DNA of 64,000 nucleotides from Escherichia coli (GTDB taxonomy: Bacteria > Pseudomonadota > Gammaproteobacteria > Enterobacterales > Enterobacteriaceae): assembly GCF_046105845.1 (NCBI RefSeq), contig NZ_CP151004.1, one strand, 5' to 3'. Shown one piece after another: positions 5,991 through 8,900 of the stretch (position 1 is the stretch's first letter; every line of letters starts with the position of its first letter). Made by a program: the position numbers.

Positions 5991-8900
5991 CTAGCAGGGT
6001 GGTAAATTCATGGCCGGGTAAGCGGATGGCCTGGTTTTCATCGGCGCGTTCAGCGGTGGTGATGTAATCCATGATGCGTTGCAGCTTGGCATCGCGGGTG
6101 GCACCGTCGATCAATTTATCCACTTCAATGGCGATAAAGATTTGCGAAACACCATATTCGTCGCTGTTATCCTGGGTGACTTCGGCAACCGATGCGCCGT
6201 CGGAAAGCAGGGTGGCTATCATATCCAGCACGATCGACATACCGGAACCTTTCCAGTAACCCATCGGCAAAATGCGGCGATTTTTCTCGATAACGCCAGG
6301 TTCTTTGGTCAAATTGCCCTCATCATCAAAGCCACCATCGACCGGGAGCTGACGACCTGCCAGACGGTTAACTTCTAACATGCCGTAAGAGAACATCGAC
6401 ATCGACATATCGACCATGGTGATTGGGGTAGAAGGAATGGCGACGATCAGCGGGTTGGTGCCGATGCGACACTCTTTTGCGCCCCACGGCGGCATTACGG
6501 CGATGGAGTTGGTCCAGCAAATGCCAATATAGCCTTTTTCCGCCGCCTGCCAGCCGTAGCTGCCGCCGCGCATCCAGTGGTTGGCATTACGTAGTGCCAC
6601 CAGACCAATACCATGATCGGCAGCCAGTTCGATGGCGCGATCCATCATCTTTTTCGCTGTCAGGTTACCGATCGAACGCTGGGCGTCCCACTGTTCAATT
6701 GCGCCGAGGCTGGTTATACGTTTGGGTTGGGCATCAGGAATGATATCGCCGTTTTCCAGTTGTTGAATGAAACGAGGGAAACGGTTGACGCCGTGAGAAT
6801 AAACGCCGGATTCGGTGGTGCGGGCGAACATTTCGGCACAGGCATCAGCCGTTTCGCTGTCAACGCCGCGTGAAATTAAGACTCGATTAAAGGCTGCTTT
6901 TAACTGCTCAAATGTCACTTTCATCCCTGGCTTCCTTGTTTTTTTTGATCGCTTTTTTGGCTTAAAATTTCAATATGCGAAATCTGATTTCAAATATATC
7001 GATCGCTTTTTAACAAAGCAATCTGATTGATGAATTTCAAAAAACTTAAAAATCAAGTGGTTATAAATTATCTGTCGAGATCGTGAACTACGACACACTT
7101 TGCGCTACCATCAGGACGCGACAAAATGGGGAAAGAAGTGATGGGAAAAAAAGAGAACGAGATGGCGCAGGAAAAAGAGCGTCCAGCCGGAAGCCAGAGT
7201 CTGTTTCGCGGGTTGATGCTGATTGAGATTTTGAGCAACTATCCAAACGGTTGTCCGTTGGCGCATCTTTCGGAACTGGCTGGTTTAAATAAGAGTACCG
7301 TCCATCGCTTATTGCAGGGATTACAGTCCTGCGGCTATGTGACCACCGCGCCCGCCGCAGGGAGTTACCGCCTGACTACCAAATTTATTGCCGTCGGGCA
7401 GAAGGCGCTGTCTTCGCTGAATATCATTCATATCGCCGCTCCGCATCTTGAGGCACTGAACATCGCCACTGGTGAAACCATTAACTTCTCCAGCCGCGAA
7501 GACGATCACGCTATTTTGATTTATAAGCTGGAACCCACAACCGGGATGCTGCGAACCCGTGCCTATATAGGCCAGCATATGCCGCTCTACTGTTCCGCAA
7601 TGGGCAAGATCTACATGGCGTTTGGTCACCCGGACTACGTGAAGTCATACTGGGAAAGCCATCAGCATGAGATCCAGCCGTTAACCCGCAATACCATTAC
7701 CGAGCTGCCCGCGATGTTCGACGAACTGGCGCACATTCGTGAAAGCGGAGCGGCGATGGACAGAGAAGAAAACGAACTCGGCGTCTCCTGTATTGCTGTT
7801 CCGGTGTTTGATATTCATGGGCGGGTGCCGTACGCCGTGTCGATTTCTCTTTCGACATCACGTCTGAAACAGGTGGGGGAGAAAAATCTCCTGAAACCAC
7901 TGCGTGAAACCGCGCAGGCTATTTCTAATGAACTGGGATTTACTGTCAGGGACGACCAGGGCGCGATCACATAACCCTTTGGACAAGTGCCAAAACTTTA
8001 ACATTTCCTTCGTTGGATCAAAGCAGTAGAGACGCGCTCTCTGGCACTCTGCTGTTTTAGTGCAAAGGAGTGATCATGAACCGGTTTATTATTGCGGATG
8101 CGACGAAATGTATCGGTTGCCGTACCTGTGAAGTGGCTTGCGCAGTGTCGCATCAGGAGAATCAGGATTGCGCTGCGTTGTCACCAGACGAGTTTATTTC
8201 CCGTATTCGTGTTATTAAAGACCACAGCTGGACCACGGCTGTAGCCTGCCATCAATGTGAAGATGCACCGTGCGCGAATGTCTGCCCTGTTGACGCGATA
8301 AGCCGCGAACATGGGCATATTTTCGTTGAACAATCACGTTGCATTGGCTGTAAAAGCTGTATGCTGGCTTGCCCGTTTGGTGCGATGGAGGTCGTTTCTT
8401 CGCGCAAAAAGGCGAGGGCGATTAAGTGCGATCTGTGCTGGCATCGGGCGACGGGACCGGCCTGTGTTGAAGCCTGCCCGACAAAGGCGTTGCAGTGCAT
8501 GGATGTCGAGAAAGTGCAGCGACATCGGCTACGGCAGCAGCCTGTTTGAAACGTTTTTCCGGCGTTTCTCAACGCCGGGATAGTGCGCTTTGTTTATGCC
8601 GGATGCGGCTAAAACGCCTTATCCGGCCTACAAATTCTACCAAATTCAATATATTGCAGAAATCATGTAGGCCTGATAAGCGTAGCGCATCAGGCAATTT
8701 TTAGTGACTTTCAGCCCAGGCTATTTCTATCTCTTCTGCCAGAATCTTCACACCCGCCTCAATTTTCTCCGGCTCCGGCACGTAGTTCATGCGCATACAT
8801 TGATGTGTATGTGGCCACGGTTTATCCAGCCCTGGGAAGAAGTTGTGCCCCGGCACCATCAGCACGCCCCGTGCTTTCAGGCGCTGGTAGAGCTGCTCGG

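What the first reader, a model, noticed from the sequence alone, without database searches (positions are those of the whole stretch)
8556..8700. BIME-type REP cluster between convergent ysaA and avtA
Seen in sequence: a short hairpin (ccggcgtttctcaacgccgg) followed by two inverted REP palindromes matching the enterobacterial REP consensus. These act as mRNA 3'-end stabilisers and gyrase/IHF binding sites; it is worth noting only because REP copy number and arrangement differ between strains.
Basis: partly seen in the sequence, partly recalled or inferred. Interest (0 to 1): 0.12.

Follow-up and report, generated by a model that had tools for sequence, protein, structure and literature searches.

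The report
Ordinary BIME-1 repeat between ysaA and avtA
The 150-base gap between two converging E. coli genes holds a conserved hairpin plus one copy of a well-known repeat: two inverted REP palindromes around a conserved linker reported to bind IHF. It is ordinary, and about one E. coli genome in six lacks it.

Summary
Window 8550-8700 is the gap between the convergent genes ysaA (+) and avtA (-) of E. coli. It holds an 8-bp hairpin (8559-8578) and two inverted REP palindromes (8598-8631 on +, 8667-8695 on -).

The REP pair is a single BIME-1 unit (also called RIB or RIP), not a generic cluster. Its layout is A motif, Y REP, 35-nt L linker carrying the IHF-type site, then inverted Z1-type REP. 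A covariance model built only from 17 E. albertii copies hits 8583-8713 full length (141 bits, E=2e-32). The linker also passes Rfam ES036.

K-12 MG1655 carries the same element at the same junction. About 83% of 5,426 complete E. coli genomes have it. About 17% have a junction 113 bp shorter that keeps only the hairpin, as do Salmonella and Citrobacter. The element is therefore a derived insertion, and its all-or-none polymorphism is the behaviour published for BIME-1.

Likely roles, inferred from the family and not shown here:
- protective 3' stem-loops for both transcripts;
- an IHF site in the DNA;
- possibly damped avtA translation, because the REP stem starts 5 nt after the stop codon.

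Strong gyrase binding is documented for BIME-2, not BIME-1. Already known; low interest.

The parts
8076..8549 (+). ysaA coding sequence (4Fe-4S protein, 157 aa). Its 3' end faces the element.
   Evidence: ORF list. RefSeq annotation of matching genomes. Homologues carry Fer4 Pfam domains.
8557..8580 (.). Ancestral stem-loop just after the ysaA stop codon (core stem 8559-8566/8571-8578, loop TCTC). It is not part of the BIME and is not a canonical intrinsic terminator.
   Evidence: Perfect 8-bp inverted repeat. RNA energy -14.7/-15.3 kcal/mol, z -4.6/-4.8. Present in the short E. coli allele. A hairpin sits at the same place in Salmonella and Citrobacter with a different stem sequence. The terminator scan found 0 sites.
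8583..8597 (+). Left flanking 'A' motif of BIME-1 (GTGCGCTTTGTTTAT).
   Evidence: Matches the consensus GTGCGCnTTGTTCAT found upstream of the Y REP in most of the 17 aligned E. albertii copies. Aligned to model positions 1-15. Absent from the short allele.
8598..8631 (+). Y-type REP (palindromic unit), GCCGGATGCGGCTAAAACGCCTTATCCGGCCTAC, ending in CTAC.
   Evidence: 3 mismatches to the consensus, 0/100 shuffles. RNA hairpin -19.4 kcal/mol on + and -19.9 on -. Partial naRNA4 (REP) alignment in Rfam, 31 bits.
8632..8666 (+). L linker of BIME-1 (35 nt). It holds the invariant 16-mer AATTCAATATATTGCA (8643-8658) and an IHF-type site ATTCAATATATTG (8644-8656).
   Evidence: Rfam ES036 (RF02751) hit at 8632-8674, 38.9 bits against a gathering score of 37.6. 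The 16-mer occurs 20 times in one E. albertii genome, 17 of them in the full Y-L-Z1 context. The IHF consensus WATCAANNNNTTR is matched with 1 mismatch.
8667..8697 (-). Z1-type REP in inverted orientation (on the - strand TTGCCTGATGCGCTACGCTTATCAGGCCTAC; GTAG at 8667-8670 on +).
   Evidence: 0 mismatches to the consensus, 0/100 shuffles. RNA hairpin -12.9 kcal/mol on + and -13.2 on -. The same REP type follows the L linker in 17/17 aligned E. albertii copies.
8698..8702 (+). TTTTT run just after the Z1 stem on the + strand. It is the remnant of the T-rich 'B' flank and overlaps the avtA stop codon. It is a possible weak terminator tail for ysaA read-through.
   Evidence: Sequence. Model positions 115-131 (B motif) match only in AATTTT. 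Not called by the terminator scan.
8701..9954 (-). avtA coding sequence (valine-pyruvate transaminase, 417 aa). Stop codon TAA at 8703-8701. The Z1 REP stem begins 5 nt downstream of it on the mRNA.
   Evidence: ORF 8701..10059 with Met at codon 36. RefSeq annotation. The C-terminus ...AWAESH* is identical in long and short alleles.

Best explanation
The gap between ysaA and avtA holds two things of different age.

(1) An old, lineage-conserved stem-loop sits directly after the ysaA stop codon.

(2) One copy of the enterobacterial repeat BIME-1 (also called RIB or RIP) is inserted between that hairpin and the avtA stop codon. The inserted stretch is 117 nt (8584-8700), for a net gain of 113 bp. 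Its layout is A motif, Y REP, 35-nt L linker with an IHF-type site, then inverted Z1 REP.

Shown here:
- membership of the repeat family;
- the architecture;
- that the insertion is derived;
- that it is polymorphic among E. coli genomes.

Inferred from what is published for the family:
- As RNA, read from either gene, the REPs fold into stable stem-loops, or pair with each other into one roughly 100-nt hairpin. These block 3'-to-5' exonucleases and so define and stabilise the 3' ends of the ysaA and avtA messages.
- As DNA, the linker binds IHF.
- The Z1 REP stem starts 5 nt after the avtA stop codon. It falls inside the window of 15 nt or less in which REPs were reported to stall terminating ribosomes and lower translation.

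The element most probably persists as a near-neutral, once-mobile repeat rather than as a locus-specific regulator.
For: Family membership:
- The REP consensus matches give 0/100 shuffle hits.
- Model R1, built from 17 E. albertii copies without any E. coli sequence, hits 8583-8713 full length at 141.3 bits, E=2.3e-32.
- Rfam ES036, which is a BIME-1 linker from another K-12 locus (740211-740253; PMC4676190), is matched above its gathering score.

Architecture:
- 17 of the 20 E. albertii copies of the 16-mer have the full A-Y-L-Z1-B order.
- The published BIME-1 definition is one y plus one z1, single copy, with a long conserved L linker that frequently carries an IHF site (PMC3333891; PMC2817692; PMC1187871).

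Same element in K-12 MG1655 at the same junction.

Derived insertion:
- Salmonella and Citrobacter have 36-bp junctions with only a hairpin.
- The short E. coli allele has 38 bp, and its AATAGCGTA aligns with Salmonella AATAGCCG.

Polymorphism:
- 4,491 of 5,426 genomes cover at least 80% of the long allele, and the rest mostly cover 79% in two pieces.
- In the reciprocal search, 7 of 40 evenly spaced records have the 200-bp span and nearly all the others have 312-313 bp.

Structure: both RNA strands fold far better than shuffles, -64.3 kcal/mol with z=-5.1 and -67.9 with z=-5.8.

Location: most E. albertii copies face at least one gene 3' end, and 8 of 20 lie between convergent ORFs.

Mechanism from the literature:
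- REP stem-loops protect 3' ends of mostly Rho-dependent transcripts (PMC6061677).
- REPs fewer than 16 nt from a stop codon lower translation (Liang et al. 2015, as summarised in PMC12306157).
Against: - No functional data for this locus were found. No 3'-end map, IHF ChIP result or expression comparison for avtA/ysaA was accessible.
- The IHF consensus match alone is not significant: 62 one-mismatch matches in the window against 58 expected. The IHF claim rests on homology to linkers tested by others.
- About 17% of E. coli, plus Salmonella and Citrobacter, do without the element. This argues that any function at this junction is dispensable.
- The right-hand B motif is largely missing, so this copy is slightly truncated.
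- The Y REP of this strain has loop and upper-stem changes (GCTAAAAC against GCGTGAAC).
- The z1 and z2 consensus sequences are shown only in figures that I could not read. The 'Z1' label therefore rests on my memory plus its constant association with the L linker.
Confidence: 0.9

Rival explanations
1. The region is simply a bidirectional intrinsic terminator for the two convergent genes. The palindromes are locus-specific terminator hairpins, not members of a repeat family.
For: It lies between convergent genes. It holds strong hairpins. The Z1 hairpin is followed by AATTTTT on the + strand. The Citrobacter hairpin at the same place is followed by TTTTCTG.
Against: The terminator scan found 0 sites. 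The first hairpin has its T run upstream, not downstream. The REP part is a copy of a dispersed family (141 bits to a model from another species; 128,354 megablast places across E. coli genomes). It is absent from 17% of strains and from the outgroups.
Confidence: 0.04
2. The linker region 8632-8674 is a copy of a true small-RNA gene (Rfam ES036/CssrF) with its own regulatory targets. The REPs would be incidental.
For: The Rfam hit is above the gathering score. A 43-nt RNA from another copy was detected by RNA-seq (PMC4676190).
Against: No promoter-like site was found in 8300-8950. The authors themselves found no promoter evidence and suggested processing from a longer transcript. The ES036 consensus is the L linker of a dispersed repeat. 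A fragment trapped between two stable hairpins is the expected decay intermediate.
Confidence: 0.04
3. It is a BIME-2 or atypical BIME that acts mainly as a strong gyrase site or topological insulator between convergent transcription units.
For: Convergent transcription builds positive supercoils at exactly such junctions. Gyrase cleaves y-type REPs preferentially (PMC6379681), and one y REP is present.
Against: BIME-2 is defined by y plus z2 with short S linkers in tandem copies (PMC3333891). Here there is one unit with the long L linker and the short Z-type REP. Gyrase enrichment was reported for BIME-2 only.
Confidence: 0.02

Closest known systems
BIME-1 (= RIB, 'reiterative IHF BIME'; = RIP element) of E. 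coli. Sources: Gilson 1991; Boccard & Prentki 1993; Bachellier 1997/1999, as summarised in PMC3333891, PMC2817692 and PMC1187871.
   Same: One Y and one Z1-type REP in inverted orientation. Long conserved L linker with an IHF-type site. Single unit. Extragenic, at gene 3' ends. Present or absent among isolates. The same copy exists in K-12 MG1655.
   Different: The right-hand flanking (B) motif is cut down to AATTTT where it meets the avtA stop codon. There are small strain-specific changes in the Y loop. Nothing else differs.
Rfam RF02751 ES036 (CssrF), a 43-nt RNA at K-12 740211-740253 (PMC4676190)
   Same: Full-length match over 43/43 model positions, above the gathering score. The family consensus is the BIME-1 L linker plus the first bases of the Z1 REP.
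   Different: ES036 was defined from a different genomic copy. No expression data exist for this copy. It is probably a processing fragment rather than a gene.
BIME-2 / REP325 (naRNA4) arrays
   Same: Shares the Y-type REP (31-bit partial match to naRNA4).
   Different: No tandem repetition, no S linker and no long Z2-type REP. It is below the naRNA4 gathering score (31 against 59.5).
REP 3'-end stabilisers, and REPs close to stop codons (Newbury 1987; Liang, Rudd & Deutscher 2015, via PMC6061677 and PMC12306157)
   Same: Stable stem-loops in the 3' UTR of both genes. The Z1 stem starts 5 nt after the avtA stop codon, within the reported limit of 15 nt.
   Different: No measurement exists for avtA or ysaA. 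The ysaA stop codon is followed first by the older hairpin (9 nt away), not by a REP.

Membership tests
REP / palindromic unit | Imperfect GC-rich palindrome of about 30-35 nt matching the enterobacterial consensus, with a GTAG/CTAC tetranucleotide at its foot | tested here: met
   Y at 8598-8631 with 3 mismatches. Z at 8667-8695 with 0 mismatches. 0/100 shuffles for each. CTAC at 8628-8631 and GTAG at 8667-8670. Hairpins of -13 to -20 kcal/mol.
REP / palindromic unit | Highly repeated in the genome, and extragenic | tested here: met
   The 551-bp query gave a median of 20 places per E. coli genome, capped at 40 pieces per record. The element lies wholly between the two stop codons.
BIME-1 (RIB/RIP) | Exactly one Y and one Z1 REP in inverted orientation, as a single unit (not tandem) | tested here: met
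   One Y(+) and one short Z-type(-) only. The same pairing is found in 17/17 aligned E. albertii copies. The label 'Z1' rests on memory plus the constant L association, because the published consensus is in a figure.
BIME-1 (RIB/RIP) | Long, well-conserved L linker between the two REPs | tested here: met
   35-nt linker containing the invariant AATTCAATATATTGCA. Full-length model hit at 141 bits. Rfam ES036 hit.
BIME-1 (RIB/RIP) | IHF binds the L linker | not testable with these tools
   ATTCAATATATTG matches 8 of the 9 specified consensus positions, but such one-mismatch matches occur at chance frequency (62 against 58 expected). Binding is inferred from published work on homologous linkers.
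BIME-1 (RIB/RIP) | Flanking A and B motifs (recalled from Bachellier et al.; seen in the E. albertii copies) | tested here: inconclusive
   The A motif is present at 8583-8597. The B motif matches only in AATTTT and then runs into avtA.
BIME-1 (RIB/RIP) | Located at 3' ends of transcription units, and present or absent among isolates | tested here: met
   It lies between two stop codons. The split is about 83% long to 17% short, with nothing in between in the 70 sampled records. The literature statement is in PMC1187871.
BIME-2 | Y and Z2 REPs with short S linkers, in tandem copies | tested here: not met
   A single unit with the long L linker and no tandem repeat. Definition in PMC3333891.
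Intrinsic (Rho-independent) terminator | GC-rich hairpin immediately followed by a U tract | tested here: not met
   The consensus scan found 0 sites on either strand in 8300-8950. Only the Z1 hairpin plus AAUUUUU on the + strand comes close.
Rfam ES036 (RF02751) | Score at or above the curated gathering threshold | tested here: met
   38.9 bits against 37.6, model positions 1-43 of 43.
Rfam naRNA4 (RF02564) | Score at or above the curated gathering threshold | tested here: not met
   31 bits against 59.5. Only one REP of the pair is aligned.

The most novel reading that the evidence does not exclude
The BIME-1 insertion puts a REP stem 5 nt after the avtA stop codon. It could therefore act as a natural on/off allele. 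Strains with the element (about 83%) would have lower AvtA translation, through ribosome stalling at the stop codon, or altered avtA/ysaA mRNA stability. Strains with the ancestral 38-bp junction (about 17%) would not. That would be a small, heritable difference in alanine/valine transamination capacity caused purely by a repeat insertion.
Probability: 0.15. Interest if true: 0.25.

Novelty: already known. Interest (0 to 1): 0.07.

Why it matters
It matters little. The element is a textbook enterobacterial repeat, and the same copy sits at the same junction in E. coli K-12.

Three points are modestly useful:
- This junction is a clean natural presence/absence pair, with outgroups that fix the ancestral empty site. 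It would be a convenient test case for how a BIME-1 affects the 3' ends of two converging genes.
- The Rfam 'sRNA' family ES036 is the BIME-1 linker. Hits to it should be read as repeat copies, not as genes.
- The first hairpin is a separate and older feature than the REPs.

Tried and rejected
- RefSeq NC_000913 as held here lists only CDS features at this locus. I could not read the official REP/RIP number for the K-12 copy.
- Literature not held: Boccard & Prentki 1993 and Liang, Rudd & Deutscher 2015. Their claims are cited second-hand.
- The first 'ES036/CssrF' search returned only unrelated papers. A second search found the source.
- The RepRanger supplements have no avtA or ysaA entry. 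The Dar & Sorek Term-seq tables are not held. The 'avtA + IHF' and 'avtA/ysaA + REP' searches gave nothing relevant. One exception: an RNA antisense to ysaA has been used as a qPCR reference, which hints at read-through from avtA.
- The IHF consensus scan on its own is uninformative.
- The promoter/terminator scan found nothing.
- None of the 20 E. albertii copies lies next to avtA or ysaA, so that species could not serve as an outgroup for this junction. Salmonella and Citrobacter were used instead.
Single matches in unrelated phyla lack REP flanks and are chance: I estimate about 140 expected for a 16-mer in 298 Gb on both strands.
- No target-site duplication was seen at the insertion boundaries.
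- A weak model hit at 30915-30973 is an unrelated perfect hairpin, not a REP.

Full report
**What is there.** The window is E. coli chromosome. Region 8350-8900 is 99.6% identical to strain 2012C-4502 and matches 5,425 of 5,426 complete genomes. RefSeq annotation under the matches, and the K-12 MG1655 record, name the flanking genes. ysaA (4Fe-4S protein) is on the + strand and ends at 8549. avtA (valine-pyruvate transaminase) is on the - strand, with its stop codon at 8703-8701. The genes converge, and the gap is 8550-8700.

**Checking the observation.**
- The hairpin CCGGCGTT-TCTC-AACGCCGG is at 8559-8578, a perfect 8-bp stem. Its RNA energy is about -15 kcal/mol on either strand, z about -4.7.
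- The first REP (8598-8631, +) matches the Y-type consensus with three mismatches, all in the loop and upper stem.
- The second REP (8667-8695, -) matches the short Z-type consensus exactly.
- Neither pattern occurred in any of 100 dinucleotide-preserving shuffles of the 64-kb window. I supplied those consensus strings from memory, so I made an independent test.
- An exact scan of public genomes for the linker 16-mer AATTCAATATATTGCA returned 20 copies in one E. albertii genome.
- Seventeen of the 20 copies show the same order: GTGCGCnTTGTTCAT, Y REP, linker, inverted GCCTGATAAGCGTAGCGCATCAGGC, T-rich flank.
- A covariance model built from those 17 copies, with no E. coli sequence, hits the window once at full length. 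The hit is 8583-8713 (+), 141.3 bits, E=2.3e-32.
The element passes that test.

**What kind of REP cluster.**
- By the published definitions, BIME-1 is one y plus one z1 REP, single copy, separated by a long conserved L linker that often carries an IHF site. BIME-2 is y plus z2 with short linkers in tandem copies (PMC3333891; PMC2817692; PMC1187871). This element is a single BIME-1 unit, also known as RIB or RIP.
- The 35-nt linker (8632-8666) contains ATTCAATATATTG, one mismatch from the IHF consensus WATCAANNNNTTR. On its own that match is no better than chance, with 62 such matches in the window against 58 expected. The IHF inference rests on homology to linkers shown by others to bind IHF.
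- The linker also scores above threshold for Rfam ES036 (38.9 against 37.6 bits). ES036 was defined from a 43-nt RNA-seq signal at a different K-12 locus. It had no promoter evidence, and its authors thought it was processed from a longer transcript (PMC4676190). Its consensus is the BIME-1 linker.
- The right-hand B flank of the family is reduced here to AATTTT, where it abuts the avtA stop codon.

**History of the locus.**
- K-12 MG1655 has the same element at the same junction, with a few substitutions.
- Of 5,426 complete genomes, 4,491 cover at least 80% of the long allele. The remainder mostly cover 79% in two pieces, with a junction 113 bp shorter.
- A reciprocal search with the short allele agrees. 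Seven of 40 evenly spaced records span 200 bp in one piece, and nearly all others span 312-313 bp in two pieces. No intermediate sizes appeared.
- The short allele keeps the hairpin and has a 38-bp gap.
- Salmonella and Citrobacter have the same gene order with 36-bp gaps. Each contains only a hairpin at the same position, with a different, self-complementary stem. The bases after it (AATAGCCG in Salmonella) align with the short E. coli allele (AATAGCGTA).
- The short junction is therefore the ancestral empty site. The BIME-1 (8584-8700, replacing CGTA) is a derived insertion within E. coli.
- The AvtA C-terminus is unchanged (...AWAESH*).
- The polymorphism is not a simple phylogroup split. 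The B2 strains S88 and clone D i2 carry the long allele.
- All-or-none presence is the published behaviour of BIME-1, in contrast to the length polymorphism of BIME-2 (PMC1187871, citing Bachellier 1997).

**How it most likely works (inferred, not shown for this locus).**
- Both RNA strands across the gap fold much better than shuffled controls: -64.3 kcal/mol with z=-5.1, and -67.9 kcal/mol with z=-5.8. The two REPs fold either separately or paired with each other in one long hairpin.
- REP stem-loops are known to stop 3'-to-5' exonucleases and to mark the steady-state 3' ends of many, mostly Rho-dependent, transcripts (PMC6061677). Neither strand has a canonical intrinsic terminator here. 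The nearest thing is the Z1 hairpin followed by AAUUUUU on the ysaA strand.
- On the avtA message, the Z1 stem begins 5 nt after the stop codon. This is inside the window of 15 nt or less in which REPs were reported to stall terminating ribosomes and reduce translation (Liang et al. 2015, as summarised in PMC12306157).
- At the DNA level, the linker is the family's IHF site.
- Strong gyrase binding is documented for BIME-2, not BIME-1.
- A sixth of E. coli, and the outgroups, lack the element. Any role at this junction is therefore dispensable.
- In E. albertii, most copies face at least one gene 3' end, and 8 of 20 lie between convergent ORFs. The location is typical of the family.

**Verdict.** The observation and its interpretation stand, with three refinements: BIME-1 rather than a generic cluster, IHF rather than gyrase, and presence/absence rather than copy-number variation. 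The leading hairpin is an older feature, separate from the repeat. The element is already known and of low interest.

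Noticed in passing
window 8632-8674; Rfam RF02751: The Rfam 'sRNA gene' family ES036 (CssrF) has as its consensus the L linker of BIME-1. Its hits are copies of a dispersed repeat, not of a dedicated gene. The founding RNA had no promoter evidence (PMC4676190).
   Followed up: partly
window 53496-53561 (-) and 53979-54044 (-): Two rdlD antitoxin RNA copies lie 483 bp apart (Rfam, 87 and 90 bits). This suggests a tandem ldr/rdl toxin-antitoxin duplication at this locus.
   Followed up: no
window 45161-45580: tRNA-Pro(CGG) at 45161-45237 is followed by an RtT-like element (45272-45405, 102 bits). A REP pair then passes the naRNA4 threshold (45499-45580, -, 62.7 bits). This is a second REP cluster in the window.
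   Followed up: no
window 27425-28287: A sok-like antisense RNA (27425-27576, +) lies next to the cspA thermoregulator leader (27859-28287, -). This is the expected hok/sok-cspA neighbourhood.
   Followed up: no
window 30929-30958: A perfect 12-bp inverted repeat, ATGCCAGGTGAT-ttctgc-ATCACCTGGCAT, was picked up as a weak (21-bit) hit of the BIME-1 model. It is not a REP.
   Followed up: partly
L087 (NZ_AGAF01000060.1, 262 bp) and L121 (CAUHML010000178.1): A 262-bp contig in a 'Desulfosporosinus sp. OT' assembly and a contig binned as 'Bacteroides' both carry a complete E. coli-type BIME-1. These are probably contamination or mis-binning.
   Followed up: no
L130 1975-2612 (Yokenella regensburgei): The ysaA-avtA junction is 638 bp in this species, against 4-56 bp in the other genera sampled. 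Its content is unknown. It ends in a GC hairpin followed by TTTTCG.
   Followed up: no
L124 2475-2525 (GCA_901669845.1): The contig ends 51 bp after ysaA. Its sequence diverges from all E. coli alleles right after the hairpin (…AACAGATCTCTGAGCATCGATCGA). This may be another insertion or an assembly break at a repeat.
   Followed up: no
E. coli genome hits H69, H70: About 149 genomes cover less than 80% of the short-allele query. In at least one (NZ_AP045771.1) the junction is split into two distant places, which suggests a larger insertion or rearrangement at this site.
   Followed up: no
ysaA antisense strand (literature: PMC5553809): An RNA transcribed antisense to ysaA has been used as a stable qPCR reference in K-12. 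This suggests that avtA transcription reads through the BIME-1 into ysaA.
   Followed up: no
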